Part shown: positions 15,594 to 35,777 of the stretch, piece after piece
How positions within the stretch are numbered: the stretch's first letter is position 1
How the letters are laid out: each line of letters starts with the position of its first letter
Assembly: GCA_016791115.1 (NCBI GenBank)
Contig: JAEUNL010000016.1
Span: 36,878 to 100,877, forward strand
Length of the DNA: 64,000 nt
Source of the DNA: Rhodocyclaceae bacterium
Lineage (GTDB): Bacteria > Pseudomonadota > Gammaproteobacteria > Burkholderiales > Rhodocyclaceae
Direction: 5' to 3'
Translations under genes and position numbers: made by a program
Notes under the pieces: generated by a model
What the model was told of the DNA's origin: nothing
The model's input: only the letters and a program-made list of their open reading frames with translations
Database searches by the model: none

Positions 15594-17054
15594 ATGACCG
15601 AAAACACTGCACGCAAACCCCGCCTGCTGATCGTCGACGACGATCAGCTCATCACTGAAACTCTGGGCTTCGTGCTCGGCGATTTGTTCGAGATATTCGT
15701 CGCACACACACGGGCGGAAGGCATCGCGGTTCTGCGCGCCATGCCGGCCCTGCCTGAGGTCGCGCTGATCGACCTCGGCCTGCCACCGGCCGTGCACCGG
15801 CCCGACGAAGGCTTCGCCCTGATCGCCGACCTGCTGGCCCATGACGCCCGGATGCGCATCGTCGTGCTCTCGGGGCAGAACGACGAATCGAACGCCCGAC
15901 ACGCCCGCGCCCTCGGCGCGCTGGACTTCATCGCCAAGCCGGCGGTACCGCAGTTGCTGCGTGCGGCCCTCGCGCGCGCCCTGCAGACACGCGGGGAGCC
16001 GGCGGCCAGCCCTGAAATCGCGCCCGGATGCCAGCTCATCGGACAGTCCATGGCGATGCGGAAGCTGCGCACGCAGATTGCGCAGTTCGCCGAATCGCCC
16101 TTTCCGGTACTAATCGAAGGCGAATCGGGCAGCGGCAAGGATGTCGTCGCCTCGTGCTGCCTGCACCAGCAGACGAGCCGCCGCGACCGCCCTTTCCTGG
16201 CGCTCAACTGTGCCGCCATCGCCCCGTCGCTGGTCGAGCCGACGCTTTTCGGCTATGCCAAGGGCGCGTTCACCGGCGCCCTCTCTAACCGGGCCGGCTA
16301 TTTCGAAGACGCACGGGATGGCACCCTGTTTCTCGACGAGATCGGCGAACTGCCGCTCGACCTGCAGCCCAAGCTGCTGCGCGTGCTGGAGAACGGCGAG
16401 TACCAGCGCGTGGGCGAGACACAGACCCGCGTGTCGCGTGCGCGCATCGTTGCGGCGACGAATCGCGACCTGCGTGCCGAGATCCGTGCCGGCCGCTTTC
16501 GCGCCGACCTGTACCATCGCCTGTCCGTCTTCACCCTCAGCGTGCCACCGTTGAGGGAAATGGACGACGATCGGCTGCTGCTGCTCGACCACTTTCGCAG
16601 GCAGTTGTCGCGACAGTCCGGCGCCGCGGAATTCCGCCTCGACGCGGCCGCACAAGCGCGCCTTGCGAAATACCACTTCCCCGGCAACGTGCGCGAGTTG
16701 CGCAACATCGTCGTGCGCCTGATGGCAAAGCATCCCGGCGAGACGCTGAACGCGGCCGGCGTCGAGACCGAACTCGATCTGTATGATTGCGCGCGAACGG
16801 GCGCAAACTCGGCGCAGGGCATCGCCGCAATCGCCCTCGGCGAGTTGCAATCGCAGGCGAACTTTTCGCTGGAAGACAAGCTGCGCAGCTGGGAGAACGG
16901 CTACATCGAAGCGGCGCTGAAACTTACTCGCGGCAATGTCAGCCAGGCGGCGCGCCTGCTCGGCATCAACCGCACGACGCTGTACAACCGCATGGAATTG
17001 CTGGCGAAGGACAAGCCTTCCGCGGGAGAATCCGCGCCGACCGGCAGCGATTGA
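15594..17054 (+). CDS. sigma-54-dependent response regulator (REC + AAA+ enhancer-binding + Fis-type HTH), PrsR-like receiver
   Basis: Trimmed to the ATG at 15594 ([17 protein letters not shown]). It has a receiver Asp context (LIDLGLPP), Walker A (GESGSGKD), the GAFTGA sigma-54 contact loop and a C-terminal HTH ([21 protein letters not shown]). Confidence 0.9.
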
Positions 17055-18674: not shown

Positions 18675-20612
18675 ATGGCACATAAGACGGGGTGCGCCGC
18701 GTCCGTACGCCTCATCGGATGTGCGGTGTCGTTGCTGATCGCCGGGTGCACGACGGCGCCACCGGTTACGCCATCCGCAAGTCACATTGCCGCCGATCAA
18801 GCGGGCACGACACCGCCTTCCGGCTCAATACCGAAGCCGGTCGACCTTCCCGTCGCCCTGCCCAAACCCAAGCCCGCTCCCCGGCTGGAGACCTATTCGG
18901 TCGTCGTCAACAACGTGAAGGTGCAGGAACTGCTGTTTGCGCTGGCGCGCGACGCGAAGATCAACGTCGACGTGCATCCCGGCCTCGGCGGCACTGTCAC
19001 GCTCAACGCGATCGACCAGACGCTGCCGCAGTTGCTCGCGAGGATCGCAAAGCAGGTCGATATGCGTTACGAGCTGGACGGCCCCAACCTGGTTGTCATG
19101 CCGGACTCGCCGTTCCTGCGCACCTACCGCGTCGACTACGTCAACCTTTCACGCGACACCAGCGGTTCCGTTTCGATCAACACCCAGATCACCTCGGCGA
19201 GCACGGCCACAGGCACCAGCGCCGCGACTGGTGGATCGGCAATCGGCGGCTCGAACAACTCGACGACGGAAGTACGCAACACCGGACGCAACCATTTCTG
19301 GGAGTCGCTGGAGAAGAACATCAAGGACATCCTGCGGGAGACCGACAAGATTCTGCCCGAAGGGTCCAGCGAAACGGTAATCGAGAGCGAAGACATCCAG
19401 ACGACCACCGGCACCGGCGCACAGACAACCAGCCGTGGGCGCAACAACCACAACAGCGCACAGCCGTCGATCGCCGGCAGCCCGAGCCCTGCGTCCGTAC
19501 AGGCCAGCGGCACGCAAATCGTGCGCCGTGCGACCTTTCGCGAAGCCGCCTCCGTGATCGTGAACGCCGAAACCGGTGTCGTGACAGTACGCGCAACGTC
19601 GCGCCAGCACGAGAAGATCCAGGAATTCGTGGATAACGTGATGAACAGCGCCAAACGCCAGGTGCTGATCGAAGCGACGATCGCGGAAGTCGCGCTCAGC
19701 AAGAACTATCAGCAGGGTATCGACTGGCAGGCGCTGTCGCGAGGAGGCAAGGGGTTCTCGTTCTCGCAGGCCGGCACCAATGTGTTGCGCGAGGAAAGGC
19801 TGCAGTTGATCAATGCCGATGGCACGGCGACGGGAACCCTGGTCAATCCGTCGCGCCTGAGCAATGTCATCCAGGTTCCGGGCGGCAATCTGCCCTCGGG
19901 CGTGACGGACAGCCTCATCGTCATGGCCTATCGCAGCGCGAATTTCGCCGCAAGCGTCAAGCTGCTCGAGTCCTTCGGCACCGTGAAAGTGCTCTCCAGC
20001 CCCAAGCTCTCCGTCCTGAACAACCAGACGGCGATCCTCAAGGTAGTCGACAACATCGTCTACTTCGAAATCAAGGCCGACACGACCGCCAATGCGAACA
20101 ACACGCTGACGACGATCACCACGACACCACGTTCGGTATCCGTGGGGCTGGTGATGAGCGTGACGCCACAGGTCAGCGAGAGTGACAGCGTGCTGCTCAA
20201 CGTTCGTCCGACGATCTCGCGCGTCACCGGCTTTGTCTCCGACCCCAATCCGAACATTCCGTCGTCGATCGGCAACCGCGTGCCGCAGATCCAGACGCGC
20301 GAGATGGAATCGATGCTGCGCGTCACCGACGGAGAAATCGCGGTACTCGGCGGATTGATGCAGGACGACATCGATTACAAGACCGACGCCGTACCGGGCA
20401 TATCGCGCATCCCGCTGATCGGGAATATGTTCACCTATCGCAACGACACGAACACCAAGACCGAACTCGTGATCTTCCTGCGTCCGATCGTGATTCGCGA
20501 GCCCAGCCTCGACGGGGACTATCGAAGCTACAGGGATCGGCTGCCGACCCCCGAATACTTCAGAAACAATCCCAATCCGCCTTTGCCGCAATGGGAACTG
20601 GGAACAAAGTGA
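18675..20612 (+). CDS. secretin, lipoprotein type (MshL/GspD/PilQ family)
   Basis: The 645-aa ORF has a lipobox (LLIAGC), an N-terminal secretin N-domain (VKVQELLFALARDAKINVDV) and a C-terminal secretin core (VLSSPKLSVLNNQTA...VPGISRIPLIGNMF...ELVIFLRP). Confidence 0.9.
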   Translation: MAHKTGCAASVRLIGCAVSLLIAGCTTAPPVTPSASHIAADQAGTTPPSGSIPKPVDLPVALPKPKPAPRLETYSVVVNNVKVQELLFALARDAKINVDVHPGLGGTVTLNAIDQTLPQLLARIAKQVDMRYELDGPNLVVMPDSPFLRTYRVDYVNLSRDTSGSVSINTQITSASTATGTSAATGGSAIGGSNNSTTEVRNTGRNHFWESLEKNIKDILRETDKILPEGSSETVIESEDIQTTTGTGAQTTSRGRNNHNSAQPSIAGSPSPASVQASGTQIVRRATFREAASVIVNAETGVVTVRATSRQHEKIQEFVDNVMNSAKRQVLIEATIAEVALSKNYQQGIDWQALSRGGKGFSFSQAGTNVLREERLQLINADGTATGTLVNPSRLSNVIQVPGGNLPSGVTDSLIVMAYRSANFAASVKLLESFGTVKVLSSPKLSVLNNQTAILKVVDNIVYFEIKADTTANANNTLTTITTTPRSVSVGLVMSVTPQVSESDSVLLNVRPTISRVTGFVSDPNPNIPSSIGNRVPQIQTREMESMLRVTDGEIAVLGGLMQDDIDYKTDAVPGISRIPLIGNMFTYRNDTNTKTELVIFLRPIVIREPSLDGDYRSYRDRLPTPEYFRNNPNPPLPQWELGTK

Positions 20613-21995: not shown

Positions 21996-23708
21996 ATGAA
22001 CGCCCCGACGAACCCGAGCCGCCGACCGCTGGGCCAGGTGCTGATTGCGCAAGGCGTGATCAGCGAGGACCAATTGCGCATCGCGTTGCTGGAACAGGGC
22101 AAATCGAACCTGCCGATCGGACGCCTGCTCGTCACGCTGGGCTTCGTATCCGAAGCCACGTTGCGCGAAGCGCTGTCGCAAACGCTGGGAAAGCGCAGCG
22201 TCGACGTATCGAGCGCGATCGTCGACCCGGCTGCGCTGCAACTGGTTCCGCGCGAACTCGCCAAGCGCCTGCGCCTGCTGCCGATGAGTTTTGATGCCGG
22301 AATGCGCCAACTGCAGATCGCGCTTGCCGACGTCAACGACATCGTCGCACTCGACAAACTGCGCGGCGTCCTGCCCGAGGATGTCGAGATCGAGACCGTG
22401 CTGGCCGGCGAGTCCGAGATCGCCCGCGCCATCGACCAGCACTACGGCCACGAACTCTCGATCGACGGCATCCTGACCGAGATCGAAACCGGCGAAATCG
22501 ACTACCGCGGGCTAGCTGCGCTGACCGACGAATACTCGCAGCCGGTCGTGCGCCTGATCGATGCACTGCTCACCGATGCGGTGAAACGCGACGCCTCCGA
22601 CATCCATTTCGAGCCAGAAGGCAGCTTCCTGCGCATCCGTTACCGCATCGACGGACTGCTGCGCCAGATCCGCGCCCTGCACAAGAGCTACTGGCCCGCG
22701 ATGGCGGTGCGCATCAAGGTCATGGCCAACCTCAATATCGCCGAGACGCGCGCACCGCAGGATGGCCGCATCTCGCTGAACATCAGCGGACGCCCGGTGG
22801 ATTTCCGCGTCAGCGCGCAGCCAACGATCCATGGCGAGAACATCGTGCTGCGGATCCTCGATCGCCAGAAGGGCATCGTCGCGCTGGACGACCTCGGGCT
22901 GTCCGAGCACCAGCTCGACATGCTCAAGCTGATGATCGCGCGGCCGGAAGGCATCGTGCTCGTGACCGGACCCACCGGCAGCGGCAAGACGACCACGCTC
23001 TACTCGATCCTCAACCACATCAGCTACGAGGGCATCAACATCATGACCCTCGAGGATCCGGTCGAATACCCGATGGCGATGATTCGCCAGACCTCGGTGG
23101 CGGAAGCCTCCAAGCTCGATTTCGCGAACGGCGTGCGGTCGATGATGCGCCAGGATCCCGACGTCATCCTGGTCGGCGAGATCCGTGATTCGGACACGGC
23201 GGAGATGGCATTCCGCGCGGCGATGACCGGCCACCAAGTATTCTCGACGCTACACACGAATTCCGCGATCGGCGTGATTCCGCGTCTGCTCGACATCGGC
23301 ATCCTTCCGGACATCATGGCCGGCAATATCATCGGGGTCGTCGCGCAGCGGCTGGTGCGCCGCCTGTGTCCGCACTGCCGCGAACCCTATATCGCCGATC
23401 CGATCGAGACGAGGCTGATCGGCATCTCGAGCGACCGCCCGGTGCATACGCTGTATCGCGCCGTCGGTTGCGACCGCTGCGACTATCAGGGCTACCGCGG
23501 ACGCCTCGCGGTGATGGAACTGATGCGCATGGACGCAGATCTCGATGAACTGATCGCACGCCGCGCGACCTTTCGCGAGATCCGCAATGCCGCGCGCGCC
23601 AAGGGCTTCCGCTCGCTCGCGGAGGACGGCATGCGTCGCGTGCTCGAGGGCGTCACCTCGCTCGAGGAGGTCGGTCGCGTCGTCGATCTAACAGAGCGGA
23701 TGGGCTGA
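21996..23708 (+). CDS. GspE/PilB/MshE-family secretion ATPase with an MshEN-like N-terminal domain
   Basis: The 570-aa ORF has Walker A (GPTGSGKTTT), Asp box, Walker B and His box, and a tetracysteine pattern (CPHC...CDRC). The N-terminus carries tandem 24-residue repeats resembling the MshEN c-di-GMP motif. Confidence 0.93.
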   Translation: MNAPTNPSRRPLGQVLIAQGVISEDQLRIALLEQGKSNLPIGRLLVTLGFVSEATLREALSQTLGKRSVDVSSAIVDPAALQLVPRELAKRLRLLPMSFDAGMRQLQIALADVNDIVALDKLRGVLPEDVEIETVLAGESEIARAIDQHYGHELSIDGILTEIETGEIDYRGLAALTDEYSQPVVRLIDALLTDAVKRDASDIHFEPEGSFLRIRYRIDGLLRQIRALHKSYWPAMAVRIKVMANLNIAETRAPQDGRISLNISGRPVDFRVSAQPTIHGENIVLRILDRQKGIVALDDLGLSEHQLDMLKLMIARPEGIVLVTGPTGSGKTTTLYSILNHISYEGINIMTLEDPVEYPMAMIRQTSVAEASKLDFANGVRSMMRQDPDVILVGEIRDSDTAEMAFRAAMTGHQVFSTLHTNSAIGVIPRLLDIGILPDIMAGNIIGVVAQRLVRRLCPHCREPYIADPIETRLIGISSDRPVHTLYRAVGCDRCDYQGYRGRLAVMELMRMDADLDELIARRATFREIRNAARAKGFRSLAEDGMRRVLEGVTSLEEVGRVVDLTERMG

Positions 23709-24910
23709 TGCCGGTCTTCGCATACAAGGCTGTCGACGCGGGGGGCCGCACCGTGCGCGGCGAACTCGACGCAATCAATCTCGTCGACCTCGAGATGCGC
23801 CTCAAACGCATGGATCTCGATTTCATCAACGGCGAGACGATCAAGCGGAGCAACCTGCTCCAGGGCGCGCCGATCGGACGGCGCGACCTGATCAACTTCT
23901 GCTTTCACATGGAACAGTTGACGCGATCCGGCGTGCCGATCCTCGATGCGCTTTCCGACCTGCGGGACAGCACCGAGCAGCCGCGCCTGCGCGAAATCCT
24001 CGCCAGCGTGATCGAAAGCATCGAGGGCGGACGCACCCTGTCCCAGGCAATGAACGAACACCCGAAGGTATTCGATGGTGTCTTCTGCAGCCTGATCCGC
24101 GCCGGCGAGAGCACCGGCAACCTTCCCGACGTGCTGCTGAACATCAGCGAATCGCTCAAGCGCGACGACGAACTCGCCGCCCACACCAAGAAGCTTCTGA
24201 TATACCCGCTGATCGTGACGCTGCTGATTCTCGCGGCAATGGGCGTGGCAATGGTCTTCGTCGTGCCGGAACTCGCCAAGCTGTTCCAGAGCTTCGGCCG
24301 GCAGCTGCCCTTGCACACGCGGGCTCTGGTGGCGGTTTCCCAGTTCGTGGCGCGATACTGGATGGTCATCGCGGTCACGATGGCAGGGATCGTCGGCACC
24401 GTCGCCTTTACCGTCCATACACAGCCGTCGGCCCGCTTCCGGTTCGACGAACTCAAGTTGCGGCTGCCGCTCGTCGGTCCGATCCTGCGCAAGATCATCC
24501 TCGCGCGATTCGCGGGCGCATTCGCCATGATGTATGCATCTGGAATCGCTATCACCGATGCAATTCGCGCCTCCGAGGACATCGCCGGCAATGCGGTACT
24601 GCGCGAGGGACTGCATCGCGTCGGCAACCTGATCGCAGAGGGGCAGAACGTCTCGACCGCGTTCCAGAACACCGGCCTGTTCCCGCCGCTCGTGGTGCGC
24701 ATGCTGCGCGTTGGGGAGAACACCGGGGCGCTCGACAGCGCGATGAAGAACGTGACCTACTTCTACAATCGCGACGTGCGCGAATCGATCGAGCGCGCCC
24801 AGGCGGTCGTACCTTCCGTTCTGGTCGTGCTGCTCGGCGGCCTGCTTCTGATCGTGATCATCTCGGTCCTCGGGCCCGTTTACGACGTCATCACCAAACT
24901 GCCGACCTGA
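23708..24910 (+). CDS. GspF/PilC/MshG-family inner-membrane platform protein
   Basis: The 400-aa ORF has a duplicated GspF domain pattern (FCFHMEQLTRSGVPILDAL...; FAGAFAMMYASGIAITDAI...). Its start overlaps the ATPase stop. Confidence 0.92.
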   Translation: MPVFAYKAVDAGGRTVRGELDAINLVDLEMRLKRMDLDFINGETIKRSNLLQGAPIGRRDLINFCFHMEQLTRSGVPILDALSDLRDSTEQPRLREILASVIESIEGGRTLSQAMNEHPKVFDGVFCSLIRAGESTGNLPDVLLNISESLKRDDELAAHTKKLLIYPLIVTLLILAAMGVAMVFVVPELAKLFQSFGRQLPLHTRALVAVSQFVARYWMVIAVTMAGIVGTVAFTVHTQPSARFRFDELKLRLPLVGPILRKIILARFAGAFAMMYASGIAITDAIRASEDIAGNAVLREGLHRVGNLIAEGQNVSTAFQNTGLFPPLVVRMLRVGENTGALDSAMKNVTYFYNRDVRESIERAQAVVPSVLVVLLGGLLLIVIISVLGPVYDVITKLPT

Positions 24911-24911: not shown

Positions 24912-26453
24912 ATGGCCCAGCAACGCATCCTGATAATCGATTCGACGCAGGTCGAAGTCTGGCACGCGCACGGGGGCCACCTGACCTTCGAGTCGCGCCA
25001 CGCCAGCACCGAGGATGGCCATGCCTCGTTCGACCGCTACGTTCGCGCACACGTCAAGAGCCGCTTCTACCTGCTGACGGACGTCGTAGAGGAAGGCTTT
25101 CAGTTCGAAACCATACCCGCCGTCTCGGGCGCCGATCGCAAGGCCCTGATCACGCGACGGCAGGCGCAGTACTTCTACGGATCGCCGCTGACAACCGCAG
25201 TTTCGCTCGGACGTGAAAGCGGCGGCCGGCGCGATGAGCGGATCCTCTTTGCCGGACTGACGCGCCCCGCGATCTTCGAGCCCTGGCTCGCGATCCTGCG
25301 CAAGGGCGAGGCACAGGTGGCCGGGCTGTGGTCCACCCCGCTGCTCGCCCCCGCGCTGCTCCGCGCCATCGCACCGAACGTGCGGCGCGCGTTGCTGGTC
25401 AGCCTCGGGCGAGGCGGCATCCGCCAGACCTACGTCGAGGACGGCAAGCTGCGCTTCTCGCGGCTCGCACCCGCACCAGGCAACTCCGCCGGGGACTTGG
25501 CCGCCGCCTGCGAGGCGGAATCGGCCAAGATCTACCAGTACCTTGCCGGGCAACGCATCGTGCCGCGCGGCAGCGTGCTGCCGGTGCTGGTTCTCGTCCA
25601 TGCGACGCAGCGCAGCGTGTTCGACCGCCACCTTCGCAGCAGCGACGAGCTCGAGTTCGTCGCTACGGACATCCAGCGCGCCGCCGAGGCGGTCGGACAG
25701 CGCGACCCGCAGACGGACTCGTTCGCGACTGCGCTGTTCGCGCATGCCTTGCTTCGCAATCAGCCGCAGGAACAATTTGCCCCACCGGACGAACAGCGCT
25801 TCGACTTGCTCGGCCGCGTCCGCATCGGGTTGATGGGAATCGGCGGCCTGGCGCTCGCCGGTTGCCTCGTTTTTGCCGGCAAGCAGATGCTCGAAACGAT
25901 GACCTTGCGCAACCAGAACGAAATCACCACCACACAGGCCAGCGCCGACCTGGTGCGCTACCAGAACCTGCTCGCCGCGCTGCCTCCCATGCCCGCCAGT
26001 GCGACGGAACTGCGCGGCCTCGTCGGGCGCTACCGCGAGGTCGAGCGCGCGACCGCATCCCCGGAACCGCTGTTGGGCGAAATCAGCCGCGCGATGGACG
26101 CAATGCCGCAGATCGAGGTGGATCGCATCGACTGGTCGATCAGCGATACGCCCGACCCGCAGCCGGGCACCCCGGAGGCGCGCGGTCTCCTCGTTGGACT
26201 GGAAAAGCCGGGCACCGCCTTTGCCGTGGCAACCGTCTTCGGCCACCTCGCCGGCAACGTGTCGTCGAGTCAGCGCGTGCAGATCGAAGCCGTCAACGCC
26301 TTCGCCGAGGAACTCGGGCGCAAGGAGGGGCTGCTGGTCACTGTGGTGCGCATGCCGGTGGACGTCGAATCGCAACGCGCATTGCGCAGCGATGCCGGCA
26401 GCGGATCGGACCTGGCGCGCTTCGCGGTGCGCGTAGCAAGGAAACTCGAATGA
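24912..26453 (+). CDS. bitopic assembly protein of unknown family; architecture like GspL/MshI or a PilM-PilN fusion
   Basis: The 513-aa ORF has a cytoplasmic domain of about 300 aa, one TM segment (IGLMGIGGLALAGCLVFAG) and a periplasmic domain of about 190 aa. It starts 2 nt after the platform gene stop. The assignment rests on architecture and context only. Confidence 0.6.
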   Translation: MAQQRILIIDSTQVEVWHAHGGHLTFESRHASTEDGHASFDRYVRAHVKSRFYLLTDVVEEGFQFETIPAVSGADRKALITRRQAQYFYGSPLTTAVSLGRESGGRRDERILFAGLTRPAIFEPWLAILRKGEAQVAGLWSTPLLAPALLRAIAPNVRRALLVSLGRGGIRQTYVEDGKLRFSRLAPAPGNSAGDLAAACEAESAKIYQYLAGQRIVPRGSVLPVLVLVHATQRSVFDRHLRSSDELEFVATDIQRAAEAVGQRDPQTDSFATALFAHALLRNQPQEQFAPPDEQRFDLLGRVRIGLMGIGGLALAGCLVFAGKQMLETMTLRNQNEITTTQASADLVRYQNLLAALPPMPASATELRGLVGRYREVERATASPEPLLGEISRAMDAMPQIEVDRIDWSISDTPDPQPGTPEARGLLVGLEKPGTAFAVATVFGHLAGNVSSSQRVQIEAVNAFAEELGRKEGLLVTVVRMPVDVESQRALRSDAGSGSDLARFAVRVARKLE

Positions 26454-27061
26454 ATCCGGGGTTGATATTCCGCCATGTCCGCTGGGCGCTGCTCGCCCTC
26501 GTGCTCATGCTGGCCGCCGGCACGGCAGCGGTTCACTTTTCCACCGGTTTCCGCGAACAGGCCATCGCCGCTCAACACGCCGCGATGGCGGCCCGCGCCG
26601 ACGCGCAGGGCAAGCTGTCGCGCGCCCGCGAGGAAGAGCAGGAACTGCGCGCGAGCGCCGCACGCCACGACGAATTGCGCCGCCACGGCATACTCGGCGA
26701 GGAACGCCGGCTGGACTGGGTGGAGCGCATGCGGACGATACGCGACACCCGCCGCATCCACGACCTGCGTTACGAGATTGCGCCGCAAAAGGCGTTGTCG
26801 GCACCGGCCGGCGGCCGTTACCAGTTCATGGCCAGCTCGATGCGATTGAGCCTGCTATTGCTGCACGAGGAAGATCTGCTGCGCGTGCTGCACGACTTGC
26901 GCGAGGACGTGTCGGCGCATGTGCGCACGCGCCGGTGCAGTGTGGAACGCCTGCCCGCGCCGGTCCAGCAATCCGCCACGGTCGCCCCGCAACTCAAGGC
27001 GGAATGCGAACTCGACTGGATCACCGTGCGTGACATGCAGCCAGGCGGGGCAAAGCCATGA
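26450..27061 (+). CDS. bitopic protein, GspM/PilO/MshJ-like by architecture
   Basis: This is the 3' part of track ORF 25328..27061. The ATG at 26450 overlaps the upstream stop in an ATGA. The product (MNPGLIFRHVRWALLALVLMLAAGTAAV) has a TM segment, a coiled coil and a small periplasmic domain. Total length is 203 aa. Confidence 0.55.
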   Translation: MNPGLIFRHVRWALLALVLMLAAGTAAVHFSTGFREQAIAAQHAAMAARADAQGKLSRAREEEQELRASAARHDELRRHGILGEERRLDWVERMRTIRDTRRIHDLRYEIAPQKALSAPAGGRYQFMASSMRLSLLLLHEEDLLRVLHDLREDVSAHVRTRRCSVERLPAPVQQSATVAPQLKAECELDWITVRDMQPGGAKP

Positions 27062-27489
27062 ACCGCCACGCGCGGTGCATCGCACTGTTGGCCATCGCGC
27101 TGGCGGGACCGCTGTTCGCGGCCGATCCGGCCCCGCTGGGCCGCCTGTTCTTCACACCCGAAAAACGCGCCGAACTGGACCGCGAGCGCAGTCTGGGCCA
27201 GCGCCAGACGCAGCAGATCGAGTCGGCGGACGTAAGCCTCGAAGGCATCGTGCGCCGAAGCAGCGGCCGCAACACCGTCTGGCTCAACGGCAGACCGCAC
27301 GACATGGGCCATCCGCGCGACGGCATCCTGGTCAACGTCGGGCCGGATGCAACGACCGCGCGCGTGCGCATCGGCGACGACGCGCCGGCCGATCTCCGCG
27401 TCGGCGAGTCGATCAACCGCGGCACCGGCGAGCGGCGCAGCGGATTGGGCAACGGCCAGGTCAGCGCGCAACGCGCCGGCCGGCCCTGA
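27058..27489 (+). CDS. small secreted protein, PilP/MshK-like by position
   Basis: The 143-aa ORF has a signal peptide (MNRHARCIALLAIALAGPLFAADP). Its start overlaps the upstream stop in an ATGA. Confidence 0.5.
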   Translation: MNRHARCIALLAIALAGPLFAADPAPLGRLFFTPEKRAELDRERSLGQRQTQQIESADVSLEGIVRRSSGRNTVWLNGRPHDMGHPRDGILVNVGPDATTARVRIGDDAPADLRVGESINRGTGERRSGLGNGQVSAQRAGRP

Positions 27490-29535: not shown

Positions 29536-29784
29536 GCGAACCGCGCCCACGCCAGGACCCGCATGGACTGGCGCTCCTGGCACGGCATGTCCGGTAACGC
29601 GCATGGGATGGTCGTTTTCAGGCATGCCGCCCGGTAACGTCCGGTCCATGCGGCTCACGGGGCATCGCGCTGCGCCGGCGATACGGGATCGCCGGGATTG
29701 ACCGGCCACGTTCCTTGCAGCGACACTTGAGTTCCGTCGCATAATGCCGACAAGGTAGTGTTACACCCGCGGAGCAAGACCGAT

Positions 29785-31110
29785 ATGGCCGGACAGGCCG
29801 CCCCTTCGAGATTCGTCGATAGATTGCGCAACGCCGGCATCGAGCCGGGCGACAGCGACGAGCTGCGCCTGAACAAGGCGCTGCTGGTGTTTGCCACCGG
29901 CCTGGTGAGCGTCGCGTCGACCCTGTGGCTGGCGATCTACTGGAGCCTTGGCCCGCAACTGTCGGCCACGCTGCCGTTCGCGTTCCAGATCCTGCTCGCC
30001 GGCAACCTGCTGGTCTATCTGAAGACCGGCAATTTCAATTTCTTCCGCATCGCGCAGCTCGGGCTGTTCCTCTTCTTCCCGTTCGTCGCACAGTGGAGCA
30101 TCGGCAATTTCATCACCGCGTCGGGGCTGATCCTGTGGGGGCTGCTGGCGCCGATCGGGGCCATCCTCTGCTTCGGCGTGCGCGAGTCGATCGCCTGGTT
30201 TTTCGCCTACGTTTTCCTGGTCGCGCTGACCGGCTTCTTCGACTATTACCTCGCCGACGCCGTGCCGGTATCGGCCGCCACGCGGATTCCGATCCGCACC
30301 TCGGTGTTCTTCTTCGCGCTGAACTTCGTCGCGATCTCGTCGATGGTGTATCTGCTGCTGCGTTTCTCGATCCAGGAGAAGCAGAAGATCGAATCGAAGC
30401 TCGCCGAAGCCCACCGCCTGTTGCAGATCGAGCAGGACCGCTCGGAGCGCCTGCTGCTCAACATCCTGCCGGGCCCGATCGCCGAGCGCCTGAAGAACAG
30501 CAACCAGACCATCGCCGACGGCTTCGCCGACGTCACCGTGATGTTCGCCGACATCGTGAACTTCACCCAGGTCGCGAGCGGCATGACGCCTTCGCAGGTG
30601 TTCGCGATGCTCAACCGCATCTTCTCGGTGTGGGACGAACTGGCGGAAAAGTACGGCATCGAGAAGATCAAGACCATCGGCGACGCCTACATGGTGGCCG
30701 GCGGCCTCAACGATGCGCGCGAGGACTACTCCGCCGCCATCGCCGACCTCGCGCTCGAAATGCGCGATCTGCTGCACCGGGATTTCAACGTCAACGACCG
30801 CCATCTCGACGTGCGCATCGGCATCGGCACCGGTCCGGTGGTTGCCGGCGTGGTCGGCAAAAAGAAGTTCATCTACGACCTGTGGGGCGACACGGTGAAT
30901 ATCGCCAGCCGCATCACCACGGAAGGGACGCCCGGCATGGTCCAGTGCGACGCTGCGACCTGGCGCCGCCTGAAAGGCAATTTCGTGTTCGACGAGCCGC
31001 AGGTGCTGTACCTGAAGGGCAAGGGCAACATGACCGTCTATCGCCTGCAGGGCCGCAACCAGCAGGCAACACCCGGCGCAGCACGCGCCGTCGCCGTCGG
31101 CATGCGCTGA
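29785..31110 (+). CDS. membrane-anchored class III adenylate cyclase
   Basis: I took the ATG at 29785, preceded by GGAGC. The track ORF starts at a GTG at 29758. About six TM helices are followed by a CYCc domain (FADIVNFT, KIKTIGDAYMV, YDLWGDTVNIASR). The Lys (KTIGD) and Asp (YDLWG) specificity pair predicts ATP as substrate. Confidence 0.88.
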   Translation: MAGQAAPSRFVDRLRNAGIEPGDSDELRLNKALLVFATGLVSVASTLWLAIYWSLGPQLSATLPFAFQILLAGNLLVYLKTGNFNFFRIAQLGLFLFFPFVAQWSIGNFITASGLILWGLLAPIGAILCFGVRESIAWFFAYVFLVALTGFFDYYLADAVPVSAATRIPIRTSVFFFALNFVAISSMVYLLLRFSIQEKQKIESKLAEAHRLLQIEQDRSERLLLNILPGPIAERLKNSNQTIADGFADVTVMFADIVNFTQVASGMTPSQVFAMLNRIFSVWDELAEKYGIEKIKTIGDAYMVAGGLNDAREDYSAAIADLALEMRDLLHRDFNVNDRHLDVRIGIGTGPVVAGVVGKKKFIYDLWGDTVNIASRITTEGTPGMVQCDAATWRRLKGNFVFDEPQVLYLKGKGNMTVYRLQGRNQQATPGAARAVAVGMR

Positions 31111-31134: not shown

Positions 31135-32889
31135 TCAATTCGGCAGCAGGCGCCGGTGCAGCCGGAAACAGACATGCCCCGCCTGGTTGGCCTGCAATTC
31201 GAGGCGATAGCCCAGTCCTTCGGCCTGCCGCGCCACTTGATACAGGCCGATGCCGAACCCGCCTGCGGACTCGACCGGACCACGCATCAGTTTCGCCGCC
31301 AGGTCATCGGCGATCGGCGATCCGCTGTCGCAGACCGAAAACTCGATCGCTTCTCCCGCAGAAAAGCTCGCCGAAATGCGCAACCCGGTTTCGTGCAACC
31401 GCTTGTCGAGCGCGTTCTGCAGCAGGTTTTCCGCCACCGAGTTGAACAGGCCGCTCGGCACCTCGGCGGCGGGATCGATCCCGCCTTCCGTGAAATCGAT
31501 GGCAGCGCTCCCATAGCGCTGCCCGAGGTCGGCCCACCATGACGCTGCCCGCTGCCAGACAACCGGTTGCTCCTCCGGCCGGCGCAGCTTGTCCAGCGTC
31601 TGCTGCAGGCGCTGCGTGATCACCGGCAATTGCCGGCGCAACAGCCGCTGGAACTCGGCGGAGTTGTCGCCGTCCTGCCATTCCGCCGCGAAGCACAAGG
31701 TGTTGAGCGATTGCAGCAGGTTCTTCACGTCGTGCGTGACACGCGCGCCGGTTTCATGCACGGCCTGCACATAGCTCAGGCGCTGCAACTGGCCTGCATG
31801 AACCTTGGCGAGGTAGAACTCGCCCAGCAACCGCGCCAGGAGGCCGAAGTGCCAGGACAGCGCCGGCGACAGGCGCTGGGACGTATAAAGCGTGACCGTG
31901 AGCGGGCCGTGGCGATACTCGGTCTTCTGCCCCTCCAGCCTGCCGAAGCGCCCGCTGCGATCTTCCGCACGTTCACCCGCGCGCCACTCGCCGCCGCCGA
32001 CCCAGGGCAACCGCGCAAGTCCGGCGAATGCATCGTCGAGGAAGGCGGCAGGGTCGTCCTGGCGCATCGCGTGCTCGGCCAGGTGGTGCATCCACTGCTC
32101 GAAAGGCAGGCCGACCGACAGGACGTGCCGGCTTAACAGCACGCCGAGGCCCGAGAACCCAGCCCGTGGATTCCATGCCCAGCCCAGCAGCAGCAGCAGC
32201 ACCGCCAGCGAAAGCAGCGTCAGCATGAGCGACTCCGCGTACCCTGCCGCGCGCACCAGCATGAATGCAAGGCAGCCGAGCATCAGCACCGCGAGCAACA
32301 GGAACAGGATGATGCCGGAGAACAGGTCAACGACTTCCGCCTCGTCCCGCTCCGCGTCTTCGACCGGCAGGATGGCCATGAGCGGAAACATAAGCGGCAG
32401 CACATAGCGCGCGACCAGATCGAACCCGCCCGGCAGTTGCTCGCTCATCGGCAGCAAGGGTGGCAACAGCAGAACCAGCATCAGAACCAGCAGGTAGCCC
32501 AATGCCAACAGGTAGAACAGCCGCAACCATCGCGATCCGAAGAAGAACACCTTGCCGCCAACGATCGCCGTCAGCACCATGGTCCAGGCGATCATCAGCC
32601 AGCCGTTGAGAAAGACGATGAAGCCGGTCACTGCCGCGGCAAGCACCACCAGTTCCAGTGGCCCAAGGCGGCGCTCCGCCCGCACGATCGGCTGCCACAG
32701 CAGGAACAAGCCGAAGTGGCCGACCAACAATGTGCGTGCTATCGGTGACGGAACGCCCTGCACGATCGAAAGATGGAGCAGCACGAGCAACGCGAGCAGC
32801 AGGTAGCGGCGGTATCGCGCCACAAACGCAACAATCGCAGCGAGACCGGCATGGTCGTGCGGGTGTTCCAGTTCTCGTCGGGATTCCAT
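31135..32889 (-). CDS. polytopic sensor histidine kinase, PrsK-like
   Basis: The 584-aa ORF has about 7-8 N-terminal TM helices, the H-box THDVKNLLQSL, and an HATPase_c domain (NLLQNALDK...GFGIGLYQV). It runs divergently from the pilin gene. Confidence 0.85.
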   Translation of the reverse strand: MESRRELEHPHDHAGLAAIVAFVARYRRYLLLALLVLLHLSIVQGVPSPIARTLLVGHFGLFLLWQPIVRAERRLGPLELVVLAAAVTGFIVFLNGWLMIAWTMVLTAIVGGKVFFFGSRWLRLFYLLALGYLLVLMLVLLLPPLLPMSEQLPGGFDLVARYVLPLMFPLMAILPVEDAERDEAEVVDLFSGIILFLLLAVLMLGCLAFMLVRAAGYAESLMLTLLSLAVLLLLLGWAWNPRAGFSGLGVLLSRHVLSVGLPFEQWMHHLAEHAMRQDDPAAFLDDAFAGLARLPWVGGGEWRAGERAEDRSGRFGRLEGQKTEYRHGPLTVTLYTSQRLSPALSWHFGLLARLLGEFYLAKVHAGQLQRLSYVQAVHETGARVTHDVKNLLQSLNTLCFAAEWQDGDNSAEFQRLLRRQLPVITQRLQQTLDKLRRPEEQPVVWQRAASWWADLGQRYGSAAIDFTEGGIDPAAEVPSGLFNSVAENLLQNALDKRLHETGLRISASFSAGEAIEFSVCDSGSPIADDLAAKLMRGPVESAGGFGIGLYQVARQAEGLGYRLELQANQAGHVCFRLHRRLLPN

Positions 32890-33043
32890 GGCGACTCGGG
32901 TCGGGGCAGCACACCTCGAAACGCGTCACCGGACCCGTCGCGGCCGGCGGGCAGAAGTGACGACCTACGGACGCAAGTGTCGAATTCCCGACACCCTGCC
33001 GATCAAAACAGGCGAATTATCCCATCCCTTGCGCGATTTCCAC

Positions 33044-33059
33044 TGGCACGCGGATTGCT
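33044..33059 (+). promoter_or_regulatory. sigma-54 (-24/-12) promoter of the pilin gene
   Basis: TGGCAC-GCGGA-TTGCT is an exact match to the TGGCAC-N5-TTGCW consensus. It ends 34 nt upstream of the pilin ATG at 33093. Confidence 0.72.
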
Positions 33060-33092
33060 GAGTGATGGCCATCATCCTCAGGAACCTGCGCC

Positions 33093-33746
33093 ATGCCGAA
33101 TCGCCAATCAGGCTTCACCCTCGTCGAAATCGCGATCGTACTGGTCATCATCGGCCTGCTGCTCGGCGGCGTTCTGAAGGGCCAGGAATTGATCAACAGC
33201 GCGAAGGTGAAGAACTTCGCGCAGGACTTCCGTTCGGTGCCGCTATTCATTTACGGATACCAGGACAAGTTCAAGGCCTTGCCGGGTGATGACCTCAAGG
33301 CCGTCGAGCACCTCGGCACGGGCACGCCTGTTCCAACCGGCACGTCGGCGGGCAACGGTGCAATCGACGGATACTGGAACGATGGGCAATCAGCGGCAAG
33401 CGAGGCCGTGATTTTCTGGGACCACGTCCGTCGCGCCAACCTGGCATCCGGCCCCTTCCCGATCAACACCAATGCCGACCTCCCGACCAACGCCGATGGC
33501 GGCCGCATCGGCATACAGTCGGCCAAGCCGGTCGCCGACATGACAGGTTCGTACTACATTTGCTCAGGTGGAATTCTCGGAAAATTCGCCAAGCAGCTCG
33601 ACATCACCATGGACGACGGCAAGACGACGACCGGCTCGATGCGCGTCGGCACCTGGGCGAGCAACGCCCTGACGACGGTCGCCGAGTCGGGAACCGGCAC
33701 GATCATCGACGACGGCCAGCCCTACGTCGTGTGCCTCGGATTCTGA
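33093..33746 (+). CDS. type IV pilin / pseudopilin (prepilin-type N-terminal methylation domain), 217 aa
   Basis: MPNRQSG|FTLVEIAIVLVIIGLLLGG is a canonical class III signal peptide. The gene is monocistronic, with its own promoter and terminator. Confidence 0.88.
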   Translation: MPNRQSGFTLVEIAIVLVIIGLLLGGVLKGQELINSAKVKNFAQDFRSVPLFIYGYQDKFKALPGDDLKAVEHLGTGTPVPTGTSAGNGAIDGYWNDGQSAASEAVIFWDHVRRANLASGPFPINTNADLPTNADGGRIGIQSAKPVADMTGSYYICSGGILGKFAKQLDITMDDGKTTTGSMRVGTWASNALTTVAESGTGTIIDDGQPYVVCLGF

Positions 33747-33774
33747 TCCGGCACACGCCGTAGAGGATCGAACC

Positions 33775-33804
33775 GATGCCCCGTTCGCGGGGCATCGTGC
33801 TTTT
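33775..33804 (+). terminator. intrinsic terminator between the convergent pilin and kefB-like genes
   Basis: GATGCCCCG-TTCG-CGGGGCATC forms a perfect 9-bp stem with a tetraloop, followed by GTGCTTTTC. Confidence 0.65.
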
Positions 33805-35777
33805 CAACCCTTCAGCAGCCTCTCCTCCGCCGCCACCAGCCGATCCGGCTCGCCGAGCAGCACGATCACGTCCTCGGCGTTCAGAACCGTGCCGGACTCG
33901 GGGTCCATCGAACGGATGCCGCGCCGGCGCAGTGCCGTAACCTGAACTTCCAGCTCGTCCAGTTCGAGATCGCGGATCGGCCGGCCGACGCTCCAGGCGC
34001 CCGCCGTCAGCACGACCGAGTGCAGGCGTGCCTGGTGCAGGTGCTCGATGCTCTCCTCGGCCAGGTCGTCGGCGCCGCGATAGATGCCGCGCAGCAGACG
34101 GTAGCGCTTGCCGCGGATCTCGCGAATGCGCTTGAGCACACGGGCCAGCGGCACGCCGATCAGCACCAGTGCATGCGAGGCCAGCATGATCGACGACTCG
34201 AACGATTCCGGCACCACCTCGGCCGCGCCAGCGCTCGATAGCAGGTCGTAATCGCGTTCGTCGGAGGTGCGCACGACCACTGGCACGTCGGGCCGCAGGC
34301 TGCGCACCGTGTTGATGACACGCAGCGCCGAGGGCGTGTCGGCGTAGGTGATGACTACGACCGCCGCGCGCGAAATGCCGGCAGCGGTGAGTGTTTCGCG
34401 ACGGGCGGCGTCGCCGAACACCACGGTTTCCCCCGCCGCCGCGGCCTCCTTGACGCGCTCCGGATCGAGGTCCAGCGCGATGTAGGTGATCTCTTCCTGC
34501 TCCAGGAAGCGCGCGAGGTATTGACCGTTGCGCCCGTAGCCGCAGAGGATGGCGTGGCGGTCGATGAACATCGACTGCGACGCGATCTGCGTCAGCTGCA
34601 TCGAGCGCATCAGCCATTCCGAAGGCACCAGGCGCAGCACGATCTTGTCTGCGTATTGCGAGATCAGCGGCGCGAGCACCAGCGACAGCACCAGGGCAGC
34701 GAGCACAATCTGCAGCACGGTCGACGGCACCAGGGCGGCGCGCCCGGTTTGCGCCAGCAGGACGAAACCGAATTCGCCGCCGGCACACAGCCACAAGCCG
34801 GTTCGCAGCGCGGTGCCGGGCGAGGAGCCGAACAGCCGCGAGGCGCCAGCCGCGACCGCGAACTTCAAGCCGAGCAGGCCGACGAGCGTCAACAGCACCC
34901 AGAAGGCCTGCTGCGCCACGACGGCGAGGTCGAGCAGGATGCCGATGGTGACGAAGAACAGCCCCATCAGCACGTCGCGGAACGGCTTGATGTCCTCTTC
35001 CACCTGATACCGATACTCCGTCTCGGAGATCAGCATGCCCGCGACGAAGGCGCCGAGGGCCAGGGACAGGCCGGCCAACTCGGTGACCCACGCAAGCCCC
35101 AGCGTCACCAGCAGCACGTTGAGCATGAACAGCTCGGTGCTCTTGCGCCGCGCCACCACATGGAACCAGCTGCGCATGAGGCGCTGTCCGAAGAACAGGA
35201 TCAGCGACAGCGCGACGACGGCCTTGACCGTGGCGATCGCAAGCGACGACCACATCTGCTCCGCGCTTCCGCCAAGCGCGGGTATCAGGATCAGCGAGGG
35301 CACGACAGCCAAATCCTGGAACAGCAGCACGCCCATCACCTCGCGGCCGTGCGGCGAATCGAGCTGCATGCGTTCTACCAACAGCTTGGACAGCACAGCA
35401 GTCGACGACATTGCCATTGTCATTCCGAGTGCGATGGCGCCGGTCCAGTTCAGGCCGAACACGGCCAGCGCGAGCATGACGAACAAGGCAGTCAGCGCCA
35501 CCTGCGCGGCACCGAGGCCGAACACGATGCGCTTCATGCTGTAGAGCTTGGGCAGCGAAAACTCGAGTCCGATCGAGAACATCAGGAACACGACGCCGAA
35601 CTCGGCGAAATCGCTGGCGTCCGAATGCGCAGGCAGCAGGTTGAGCGCATGCGGCCCGACCACAGCCCCCACCAGCAGGTAGCCGAGAATGGGCGGGAGG
35701 TTGAGCGACCGGAACGCCACCACGACCATTACGGCGGCGGCAAGGAGCAGGAGCACGAGCTCGAGCGCGGAAGTCAT
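33804..35777 (-). CDS. CPA2 monovalent cation:proton antiporter with TrkA-N and TrkA-C domains (KefB/YbaL-like)
   Basis: The 657-aa ORF has about 12 TM helices, then an RCK/TrkA-N domain (HAILCGYGRNGQ) and a C-terminal TrkA-C domain. Confidence 0.9.
   Translation of the reverse strand: MTSALELVLLLLAAAVMVVVAFRSLNLPPILGYLLVGAVVGPHALNLLPAHSDASDFAEFGVVFLMFSIGLEFSLPKLYSMKRIVFGLGAAQVALTALFVMLALAVFGLNWTGAIALGMTMAMSSTAVLSKLLVERMQLDSPHGREVMGVLLFQDLAVVPSLILIPALGGSAEQMWSSLAIATVKAVVALSLILFFGQRLMRSWFHVVARRKSTELFMLNVLLVTLGLAWVTELAGLSLALGAFVAGMLISETEYRYQVEEDIKPFRDVLMGLFFVTIGILLDLAVVAQQAFWVLLTLVGLLGLKFAVAAGASRLFGSSPGTALRTGLWLCAGGEFGFVLLAQTGRAALVPSTVLQIVLAALVLSLVLAPLISQYADKIVLRLVPSEWLMRSMQLTQIASQSMFIDRHAILCGYGRNGQYLARFLEQEEITYIALDLDPERVKEAAAAGETVVFGDAARRETLTAAGISRAAVVVITYADTPSALRVINTVRSLRPDVPVVVRTSDERDYDLLSSAGAAEVVPESFESSIMLASHALVLIGVPLARVLKRIREIRGKRYRLLRGIYRGADDLAEESIEHLHQARLHSVVLTAGAWSVGRPIRDLELDELEVQVTALRRRGIRSMDPESGTVLNAEDVIVLLGEPDRLVAAEERLLKG

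What the first reader, a model, noticed from the sequence alone, without database searches (positions are those of the whole stretch)
32977..33059. Consensus sigma-54 promoter and an upstream inverted repeat in front of the stand-alone pilin gene
TGGCAC-GCGGA-TTGCT at 33044-33059 matches the -24/-12 consensus TGGCAC-N5-TTGCW exactly. It ends 34 nt before the pilin ATG. A GTGTCG-N6-CGACAC inverted repeat at 32977-32994 lies 50-65 bp upstream of it, in the position expected for an enhancer (UAS).

The only sigma-54 activator in the window is the GAFTGA-containing response regulator at 15594-17054. It sits at the far end of the same island. This suggests that the regulator and the polytopic kinase at 31135-32889, which is divergent from the pilin gene, control pilin supply in a PilS/PilR-like arrangement.
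Basis: partly seen in the sequence, partly recalled or inferred. Interest (0 to 1): 0.6.

Follow-up and report, generated by a model that had tools for sequence, protein, structure and literature searches.

The report
Sigma-54 switch for an MSHA-type pilin
The gap in front of this pilus-subunit gene holds a genuine, evolutionarily conserved sigma-54 promoter with a two-site enhancer, and comparative genomics ties it to the membrane kinase next door and the regulator 16 kb away; this is a familiar way to switch a pilin gene on, seen here in an unstudied pilus system of wastewater and groundwater Betaproteobacteria.

Summary
TGGCACGCGGATTGCT (33044-33059) is one of only six exact sigma-54 consensus matches in the 3.97-Mb genome, and it ends 33 nt before the pilin ATG.

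The inverted repeat is the stronger, proximal half of a two-dyad enhancer (32958-32973 and 32978-32993). By itself it would not be significant. Its conservation makes it so.

- **Co-occurrence, 61 related genomes:** a GG-N10-GC element lies just upstream of the orthologous pilin gene in 34 of 34 genomes that carry orthologues of both the divergent 7-8-TM kinase and the response-regulator activator. It is absent in 13 of 13 genomes that lack both.
- **Named genomes:** a further 80 loci show the same link between kinase and promoter.
- **Spacing:** enhancer-to-promoter distances fall into classes about 11 bp apart (48, 60, 71, 81).
- **Target:** the enhancer matrix has one outstanding hit in the whole genome, so the pilin gene is probably the regulator's only target.

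The kinase and regulator do not pass the PrsK/PrsR models, and orthology to PilS/PilR could not be tested. They behave as a dedicated, unnamed two-component pair attached to an MSHA-class pilus. No transcript data could be obtained. I rate this a new variant of a known kind, of modest interest.

The parts
32958..32973 (.). Distal enhancer dyad, TGACGACCTACGGACG. It is degenerate. Its centre is about -104 from the predicted transcription start.
   Evidence: In 50 aligned orthologous enhancers, a second weaker 16-bp dyad (TG.C.A...T..CGAC) is conserved exactly 20 bp upstream of the proximal dyad.
32978..32993 (.). Proximal enhancer dyad, TGTCGAATTCCCGACA. It is the predicted binding site of the regulator.
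   Evidence: The consensus TGTCGAAWWYTCGACA is nearly invariant at TGTC and GACA in 50 loci. It is the best hit of the 28-nt matrix in the whole genome, at 29.3 bits against 18.9 for the next.
33044..33059 (+). Sigma-54 promoter, TGGCAC-N5-TTGCT. GG is at 33045-33046 and GC at 33057-33058.
   Evidence: Exact consensus. It is conserved in 34 of 34 kinase/regulator-positive relatives and in 56 of 59 kinase-linked named loci.
33068..33071 (+). Predicted transcription start. This is inferred, not mapped.
   Evidence: By the sigma-54 convention the C of the GC is at -12, which places +1 near 33070. No reads were available.
33080..33084 (+). Ribosome-binding site, AGGAA, 8 nt before the ATG.
   Evidence: Read from the sequence.
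33093..33746 (+). Stand-alone prepilin gene of 217 aa, with leader MPNRQSG|FTLVE. It is the presumed major subunit of the MSHA-type pilus.
   Evidence: N_methyl / TIGR02532 matches. Orthologues occur in 50 of 61 relatives and in at least 560 loci of the genome collection. The alignment is A1.
33774..33797 (+). Terminator-like hairpin with a 10-bp GC-rich stem, followed by UGCUUUUC. It makes the pilin gene monocistronic.
   Evidence: z-score -3.15. The next gene, at 33804-35777, is convergent.
31135..32889 (-). Polytopic histidine kinase of 584 aa, divergent from the pilin gene. It has 7-8 hydrophobic segments in residues 19-238, the H-box THDVKN at H386, and a HATPase_c domain.
   Evidence: Orthologues occur in 35 of 61 relatives and are nearly always adjacent and divergent to the pilin gene.
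15594..17054 (+). Response-regulator sigma-54 activator of 486 aa, with REC, AAA+ (Walker A at 176, GAFTGA at 224) and Fis-type HTH domains. It is the first gene of the pilus-machine operon.
   Evidence: Clear orthologues (at least 54% identity) occur in 36 of 61 relatives. These are the same genomes as for the kinase, apart from one.
29758..31110 (+). Membrane class III nucleotidyl cyclase, convergent with the kinase. It is a loose associate and not part of the core switch.
   Evidence: Guanylate_cyc domain. It is absent from six kinase/regulator-positive genomes and present in two that lack both.

Best explanation
The pilin gene at 33093-33746 is a single-gene unit, transcribed from a sigma-54 promoter (33044-33059) and ended by its own hairpin. 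Sigma-54 holoenzyme forms a closed complex that cannot open without an ATP-driven activator.

That activator is most likely the REC-AAA+-HTH regulator encoded at 15594-17054. It would bind as dimers to two 16-bp dyads, 20 bp apart, centred near -84 and -104, and assemble into the active ring on the correct face of the helix. Its phosphorylation state would be set by the orphan 7-8-TM histidine kinase, which is encoded divergently from the pilin gene.

The rest of the pilus machine carries no such promoter, so the pair appears to control subunit supply only.

**Shown here:**
- the sequence elements;
- their conservation and phasing;
- their co-occurrence with both proteins;
- rpoN in the genome.

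**Inferred:**
- transcription start and sigma-54 dependence;
- which protein binds the dyads;
- the kinase-regulator pairing;
- the signal sensed.
For: 1. The element is an exact consensus, one of six in the genome, correctly oriented and 33 nt before the ATG. rpoN is present.

2. **Footprint.** In 90 kinase-linked orthologous loci, the positions my search did not fix are conserved: C at position 4 in 93%, A at position 5 in 94%, C or T at position 6 in 100%, and T at position 13 in 96%. The N5 spacer varies. The median distance to the ATG is 40 nt.

3. **Phyletic pattern in 61 relatives.**
   - Kinase orthologues occur in 35 genomes.
   - Regulator orthologues occur in 36. Identity is bimodal, at least 54% for orthologues against at most 45% for paralogues.
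   - A GG-N10-GC element scoring at least 8 of 11 lies within 110 nt of the pilin ATG in 34 of 34 positive genomes. It is found in 0 of 13 genomes that lack both proteins.

4. **Independent set of 80 named loci.** A divergent kinase and a promoter scoring at least 9 occur together in 56 of 59 loci. The promoter occurs in 4 of 13 loci without a kinase in the flank. The Fisher p-value is 1.5e-6, and the background rate is 0.021 per window.

5. **Enhancer.** The conserved dyad is TGTCGAAWWYTCGACA, with a weaker dyad 20 bp upstream. Dyad-centre to GG distances cluster at 48-49, 58-62, 70-73 and 79-82 nt, which is helical phasing.

6. **One target.** The matrix's best genome-wide hit is this site (29.3 bits). 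The runner-up (18.9 bits) lies inside a coding region.

7. **Separable module.** Genomes that lack both proteins still have the machine cluster linked to the pilin gene, but without the regulator, the kinase or the promoter.

8. **Linkage.** The kinase-pilin pair stays adjacent and divergent even where it lies 168 kb (G022) or 1.65 Mb (G008) from the regulator and machine.

9. No sigma-70-like promoter was found in 32600-34000, and no Rfam element.
Against: - No transcript or binding data exist.
- The genome has 20 other sigma-54 activators. I did not profile their distribution, so the assignment rests on co-occurrence, not on a demonstrated contact.
- Genomes are related, so the counts are not independent events. 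The negative genomes are scattered among positive genera of the same family, which helps.
- The distal dyad in this genome is degenerate (TGACG...GGACG).
- No conserved IHF-like site lies in the 50-nt spacer, so how the short loop forms is unclear.
- Three kinase-linked loci (L086, L105, L122) scored below the threshold of 9, and four loci without a kinase in the flank had a promoter-like element. L122 has an 8-of-11 element at 37 nt from the ATG plus a 20.5-bit dyad, so it is probably a near miss.
- G012 has the regulator but not the kinase.
Confidence: 0.75

Rival explanations
1. The sigma-54 promoter and enhancer are real, but another of the genome's 20 sigma-54 activators drives them, for example a canonical PilR- or NtrC-type protein. 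On this view the island's regulator controls something else, and it co-occurs only because it travels with this cluster variant.
For: There are 21 activators in the genome. The dyad formally fits the generic TGT-N10-ACA pattern known for NifA, and is close to the NifA-like TGT-N11-AGA hallmark of PilR sites quoted in PMC6058289. The regulator is 16 kb from the promoter, and in some genomes it is unlinked.
Against: Promoter and enhancer are present in 34 of 34 genomes with this regulator's orthologue, and absent in 13 of 13 without it. Several of those negative genomes (G035, G054, G006, G010) keep the machine cluster next to the pilin gene. The regulator has no other candidate site in the island or the genome. 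It is an orphan receiver and the kinase is an orphan transmitter.
Confidence: 0.13
2. The repeat is mainly an operator for the divergent kinase gene, or the site of a conventional dimeric repressor or activator of a sigma-70 promoter. It would not be a sigma-54 enhancer.
For: The dyads lie only 69-105 nt upstream of the kinase ATG at 32889. Dyads with a 16-bp span are typical of many helix-turn-helix dimers.
Against: The distance from dyad to the -24 element is quantised in steps of about 11 bp across genera. That is expected for an enhancer acting on the pilin promoter and not for an operator of the opposite gene. The dyads disappear together with the sigma-54 element. No sigma-70-like promoter was detected in the gap. 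A dual role is not excluded.
Confidence: 0.07
3. Both motifs are chance matches in a GC-rich intergenic region.
For: Base composition alone predicts about three exact consensus matches per genome (my arithmetic). A dyad with 6-nt arms is common.
Against: Position, orientation and conservation hold across about 90 loci from several betaproteobacterial families, while the flanks diverge. The background rate of such elements is 0.021 per window.
Confidence: 0.02

Closest known systems
PilS-PilR / sigma-54 control of the major pilin gene pilA (Pseudomonas aeruginosa; also Geobacter, Myxococcus, Xanthomonas, Azoarcus sp. BH72; PMC6058289, PMC3262810)
   Same: - A polytopic membrane kinase paired with a REC-AAA+-HTH activator.
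- The target is the -24/-12 promoter of the major pilin gene.
- The upstream sites contain (G)TGTC-type repeats. PMC6058289 quotes a NifA-like TGT-N11-AGA sequence plus GTCT elements as hallmarks of PilR sites.
- The machine genes are not under the same promoter.
   Different: - The pilus is MSHA-class, not canonical type IVa.
- The kinase and regulator genes are 14 kb apart, at opposite ends of the cluster, not in a pilSR operon.
- The kinase has 7-8 hydrophobic segments and no detectable PAS or HisKA domain.
- Neither protein matches a curated equivalog model.
- Orthology to PilS/PilR could not be tested.
Nps/Npa-RpoN(-IHF) control of pilE in commensal Neisseria (PMC6528607)
   Same: A betaproteobacterial pilin gene transcribed by RpoN, with a two-component activator.
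   Different: A different pilus class and different regulator genes. No conserved IHF-like site was found in the spacer here.
PrsK/PrsR, the PEP-CTERM regulatory system (Haft et al. 2006, PMC1569441)
   Same: Single-gene units are preceded by an activator motif, a spacer of about 63 nt and then a -24/-12 motif. That system was also defined by matching phyletic profiles of the DNA site, a transmembrane kinase and an NtrC-type regulator. PrsR is among the best-scoring NCBIfam models for this regulator.
   Different: - Scores are far below the cut-offs: 44.9 bits against 300 for the kinase, and 337.8 against 502.6 for the regulator.
- The likeness is generic. About 40 other kinases and 8 other activators in this genome score higher.
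- PrsR motif 1 ends in TTTACA, not CGACA.
- The target here is a pilin, not a PEP-CTERM protein.
MSHA pilus of Vibrio cholerae (msh locus)
   Same: The machine parts match. The MshL secretin scores above its equivalog cut-off (255.2 against 250.2). The ATPase has an MshE-type N-terminal domain. An MshM-like AAA protein and a GspF-type platform protein are present.
   Different: I found no paper in the searched library that describes sigma-54 or two-component control of an msh pilin. Here the major pilin gene is detached from the minor-pilin operon and has its own switch.

Membership tests
Sigma-54 (-24/-12) promoter | GG and GC dinucleotides with exactly 10 nt between them, in the context TGGCAC-N5-TTGCW | tested here: met
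   TGGCACGCGGATTGCT at 33044-33059, with 0 mismatches.
Sigma-54 (-24/-12) promoter | rpoN and an activator with a GAFTGA loop are encoded in the genome | tested here: met
   rpoN scores 456.5 bits against a cut-off of 277. There are 21 activators. The island's regulator has GAFTGA at residue 224.
Sigma-54 (-24/-12) promoter | An upstream activator sequence, conserved and phased with the promoter | tested here: met
   Two dyads are conserved. Spacing classes are 48, 60, 71 and 81 nt.
Sigma-54 (-24/-12) promoter | Transcription starts about 12 nt after the GC and depends on rpoN and the activator | not testable with these tools
This needs 5'-RACE and mutants.
PilS/PilR two-component system | Regulator with REC, sigma-54 AAA+ and Fis-type HTH domains | tested here: met
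   Response_reg, Sigma54_activat, AAA_lid_14 and HTH_8 matches.
PilS/PilR two-component system | Kinase with a six-helix membrane domain, PAS, DHp and catalytic domains | tested here: inconclusive
   There are 7-8 hydrophobic segments, an H-box at H386 and a HATPase_c domain. No PAS or HisKA match appears even at E up to 5, and no solved-structure relative was found.
PilS/PilR two-component system | pilS and pilR are adjacent in one operon | tested here: not met
   The kinase is at 31135-32889 (-) and the regulator at 15594-17054 (+). This split layout is conserved across families.
PilS/PilR two-component system | Sequence orthology to characterised PilS/PilR | not testable with these tools
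   The libraries searched hold no curated PilS or PilR model, and no reference sequence was on hand. The best NCBIfam matches are NtrC and PrsR, both below their cut-offs.
PrsK/PrsR (PEP-CTERM regulatory system) | Scores above the TIGR02916 and TIGR02915 cut-offs | tested here: not met
   The kinase scores 44.9 against 300 and the regulator 337.8 against 502.6. Many paralogues in the genome score higher.
PrsK/PrsR (PEP-CTERM regulatory system) | The activator motif ends in TTTACA and lies upstream of PEP-CTERM genes | tested here: not met
   The enhancer here is TGTCG-N6-CGACA and lies upstream of a prepilin gene (PMC1569441).
MSHA-class type IV pilus | MshL-type secretin, MshE-type ATPase, and MshM-like and GspF-like partners | tested here: met
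   TIGR02519 scores 255.2 against 250.2. The MshEN domain and the c-di-GMP motif domain are present. AAA_22 and T2SSF domains are present.
NifA-type activation (UAS TGT-N10-ACA) | Activator with an N-terminal GAF domain that binds TGT-N10-ACA | tested here: not met
   The proximal dyad fits TGT-N10-ACA, but the linked activator has a receiver domain, not GAF. TIGR01817 scores 265.5 against 528.85.

The most novel reading that the evidence does not exclude
The unrecognised 7-8-helix membrane domain of the kinase may be a pilin-inventory sensor that arose independently of PilS. It would measure unassembled pilin in the inner membrane through the nearly invariant pilin N-terminal helix (GFTLVEIAIVLVIIGLLLGGVLKGQEL) and adjust pilin transcription accordingly. 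The two dyads in the shared 203-nt gap would also tune the kinase's own expression.

Two observations are consistent with this. The kinase-pilin pair stays adjacent and divergent even when it is separated from the machine and the regulator by 168 kb to 1.65 Mb. The kinase, the regulator and the promoter are also gained or lost as one module.
Probability: 0.3. Interest if true: 0.55.

Novelty: new variant of a known kind. Interest (0 to 1): 0.33.

Why it matters
This gives a concrete, testable regulatory model for a pilus system that is widespread but unstudied. At least 560 loci were found, in Rhodocyclaceae, Gallionellaceae, Methylophilaceae, Usitatibacteraceae and others. Many of these are wastewater, groundwater and iron- or sulfur-cycling bacteria, in which attachment and floc or biofilm formation matter.

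The model has one promoter, two defined dyads, one regulator and one kinase, and apparently a single target gene. That makes it a clean case for studying how a sigma-54 activator works from only about 85 bp upstream without an obvious IHF site. It also lets one ask what a kinase with a novel membrane sensor detects. It does not change the general picture of pilin regulation.

Tried and rejected
- **Kinase search.** The search for related loci with the kinase found nothing. A pilin alignment was used instead.
- **PrsK/PrsR membership.** Rejected. Scores are below the cut-offs and the likeness is generic.
- **Other enhancer sites.** The next-best matrix hit, at C35:42722-42757, lies inside a gene for a chorismate mutase/prephenate dehydratase-like protein (named from memory) and has no promoter downstream. 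The simple pattern TGTC-N8-GACA is not enriched.
- **Other sigma-54 promoters in the island.** None scores at least 10 of 11. The hits scoring 9 of 11 are at the background rate.
- **IHF site in the spacer.** No conserved match was found.
- **Known RNA element in the leader.** No Rfam hit.
- **Sigma-54-like element before the regulator (15543-15557).** It has one extra spacer nucleotide and is not conserved even in the two species of the same genus.
- **Cyclase as part of the switch.** Its distribution does not match.
- **Covariation between the regulator's recognition helix and clade-specific enhancer forms.** I considered this and did not run it, because the GTC/GAC core is the same in all clades.

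Full report
**1. Observation**

The window is 65% GC. Reading 32700-33700 shows TGGCAC GCGGA TTGCT at 33044-33059 on the + strand. It also shows GTGTCG AATTCC CGACAC at 32977-32994 and the ATG of a 217-aa ORF at 33093. That ORF begins MPNRQSG|FTLVEIAIVLVIIGLLLGG, a prepilin signal (N_methyl and TIGR02532 matches).

The exact pattern TGGCAC-N5-TTGCW occurs once in the window and six times on both strands of the 3.97-Mb genome. Base composition predicts about three per genome. A hit in this 203-nt gap in the right orientation has a chance of about 1e-4. At least two of the other exact matches lie 20-30 nt before ORFs on contig C43, next to a sigma-54 activator gene. I take these to be flagellar genes, which would be classical sigma-54 targets, but that naming is from memory.

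The repeat alone is not significant. rpoN is present.

**2. Context**

The window holds an MSHA-class pilus cluster:

| Coordinates | Gene product |
|---|---|
| 15594-17054 | REC-AAA+-HTH sigma-54 activator (GAFTGA at residue 224) |
| to 18576 | MshM-like AAA protein with a SPOR domain |
| 18675-20612 | MshL secretin, above its equivalog cut-off |
| 21996-23708 | MshE-type ATPase |
| 23708-24910 | GspF-type platform protein |
| 24912-27489 | Unassigned proteins |
| to 29535 | Minor pilin-like proteins |
| 29758-31110 | Membrane class III cyclase |
| 31135-32889 (-) | Histidine kinase |
| 33093-33746 | Pilin |

- **Kinase:** 7-8 hydrophobic segments, H-box THDVKN, and HATPase_c as its only Pfam match.
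- **After the pilin gene:** a terminator-like hairpin lies at 33774-33797, followed by a convergent gene.
- **Activators:** the activator is the only one of the genome's 21 that lies on this contig.
- **Other promoters:** no other good -24/-12 element lies in the island. No sigma-70-like promoter and no Rfam element lie in the gap.

**3. Comparative test in 61 related genomes**

- Pilin orthologues occur in 50 genomes.
- Kinase orthologues occur in 35 genomes, almost always adjacent and divergent to the pilin gene.
- Regulator orthologues occur in 36 genomes. They are cleanly separated from paralogues, at 54% identity or more against 45% or less.
- The kinase and regulator sets coincide except for G012.

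I extracted the region upstream of each orthologous pilin gene.

- All 34 evaluable genomes with both proteins have a GG-N10-GC element scoring at least 8 of 11. Thirty of them score at least 9. The element lies 10-79 nt before the ATG.
- None of the 13 genomes lacking both proteins has one.
- The negative genomes are scattered among positive genera of the same family.
- Several negatives (G035, G054, G006, G010) still have the machine cluster 12-15 kb from the pilin gene.
- In some negatives the pilin gene directly follows the 273-aa minor-pilin gene.

The kinase, the regulator and the promoter therefore behave as one separable module.

**4. Independent wider set**

A pilin alignment (A1) retrieved 80 named loci out of at least 560. 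The nearest is Candidatus Methylophosphatis roskildensis, at 90% pilin identity. The others are Azonexus, Sulfuritalea, Rhodocyclus, Propionivibrio, Gallionella, Sideroxydans, Methylotenera, Methylobacillus, Usitatibacter and more.

- Where a divergent kinase lies in the 3-kb flank, 56 of 59 loci have a promoter scoring at least 9.
- Where it does not, 4 of 13 do.
- The Fisher p-value is 1.5e-6, and the background is 0.021 per window.
- Across 90 kinase-linked loci, the positions my search did not constrain give the sigma-54 logo T-GG-C-A-Y-N5-t-T-GC-W.

Database names for these proteins are generic: 'prepilin-type N-terminal cleavage/methylation domain-containing protein' and 'sensor histidine kinase'.

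**5. The enhancer**

Anchoring on the promoter exposes a conserved block. Its consensus is TGTCGAAWWYTCGACA, with TGTC and GACA nearly invariant. A weaker dyad lies exactly 20 bp upstream.

In the window the two dyads are TGACGACCTACGGACG (32958-32973) and TGTCGAATTCCCGACA (32978-32993). Their centres are near -104 and -84 if +1 is at about 33070.

Distances from the proximal dyad centre to the GG fall into classes at 48-49, 58-62, 70-73 and 79-82 nt, with empty gaps between them. This is an approximately 11-bp periodicity, as expected if the activator must sit on one face of the helix. The Rayleigh p-values are inflated by shared ancestry. The discrete classes are the real evidence.

No conserved IHF-like site lies in the spacer.

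Scanning the whole genome with the 28-nt matrix gives 29.3 bits for this site. The next hit scores 18.9 bits and lies inside a coding region with no promoter downstream. The regulator therefore probably has a single target. The site itself is one of the 31 that trained the matrix.

Other clades use variations on the same GTC/GAC core:

- **Gallionellaceae:** four YGTCA repeats at an 11-bp period.
- **Usitatibacter:** two TGTCGG-N4-CCGACA dyads 21-22 bp apart.

**6. Mechanism**

The best-supported model is a two-component, enhancer-dependent switch for pilin supply.

1. The orphan polytopic kinase controls phosphorylation of the orphan receiver-AAA+-HTH regulator.
2. The regulator binds the two dyads and remodels the sigma-54 closed complex at 33044-33059.
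3. Transcription runs from about 33070 through the pilin gene to the hairpin.

The machine operon, which the regulator gene heads, seems to be transcribed otherwise. The sigma-54-like element noted by another reader at 15543-15557 has a 13-nt GG-to-GC register. It is not conserved in the two species of the same genus, where only TTTGCGCTACACT is shared.

**7. Comparison with known systems**

- **PilS-PilR/sigma-54 control of pilA, and Nps/Npa-RpoN control of pilE.** The logic is the same (PMC6058289, PMC6528607). PilR sites are described as carrying a NifA-like TGT-N11-AGA sequence plus GTCT elements (PMC6058289), which is close to the dyads here. Membership in PilS/PilR is not established. 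The genes are split, the kinase lacks a detectable PAS or HisKA domain, and no curated model or reference was available.
- **PrsK/PrsR.** Membership is rejected. Scores are far below the cut-offs, and many paralogues in the genome score higher. The PrsR motif differs as well (PMC1569441).
- **Literature.** Searches found msh-like clusters noted in betaproteobacterial iron oxidisers (PMC3770913). They found no description of this regulatory module.
- **Earlier notes of this scan.** Notes on other genomes describe the same design. I treated them as leads and reproduced the key points independently here.

**8. Verdict**

This is a well-supported but unsurprising example of sigma-54 pilin control. 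It is built from a distinct, unnamed kinase-regulator pair in an MSHA-class pilus, which makes it a new variant of a known kind.

- Confidence in the full model: 0.75.
- Confidence that the promoter itself is real: about 0.95.
- Interest: about 0.33.

Noticed in passing
window 15540-15559: The sigma-54-like element before the regulator gene (GGCAC-N8-TTGC, one nucleotide too long) is not conserved in the two species of the same genus. They share only TTTGCGCTACACT, which looks more like a sigma-70 -10 region. The machine operon is therefore probably not sigma-54 dependent.
   Followed up: partly
L063, L084, L095, L101, L110, L124, L129 (Gallionellaceae and Nitrosomonadales loci), 150-220 nt upstream of the -24 element: In these clades the enhancer is four direct YGTCA repeats at an exact 11-bp period, for example CGTCAgcatttCGTCAccattcTGTCAgcatctCGTCA. 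It sits much further from the promoter. Usitatibacter loci have two TGTCGG-N4-CCGACA dyads 21-22 bp apart.
   Followed up: partly
L013, L014, L021, L022, L055, L056, L066, L075, L089, L102: In genomes without the kinase and regulator, the pilin gene directly follows the gene for the 273-aa minor-pilin-like protein (C-terminus ...AAGRLP*). It has no sigma-54 element. This suggests co-transcription with the minor pilins, or another promoter.
   Followed up: partly
G008 and G022: The kinase-pilin divergent pair lies 1.65 Mb (G008) or 168 kb (G022) from the regulator and machine cluster, yet it keeps the promoter and enhancer.
   Followed up: no
G012 (C6:72876-74327; pilin-like genes on C101 and C111): This is the only genome with a regulator orthologue but no kinase. 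The regulator match sits in a 979-codon frame with one in-frame TGA. Its pilin-like genes are divergent (42% identity).
   Followed up: no
window 29758-31110; G015 C33; L065; L111: The membrane cyclase is only loosely tied to the module. It is missing from six kinase/regulator-positive genomes. In G015, L065 and L111 it sits directly upstream of the pilin gene with no kinase and no sigma-54 promoter.
   Followed up: partly
genome contig C43:55055 (+) and C43:46912 (-): Two more exact TGGCAC-N5-TTGCT promoters lie 20-30 nt before ORFs, next to a kinase/activator pair at C43:53290-55028. These look like flagellar genes (FliE-like MQTKGIDQMLSQLR...).
   Followed up: no
window 33774-33797: A strong 10-bp GC hairpin lies between the convergent pilin gene and the gene at 33804-35777. 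It may terminate both transcripts. The U-tract on the + strand is short (UGCUUUUC).
   Followed up: partly
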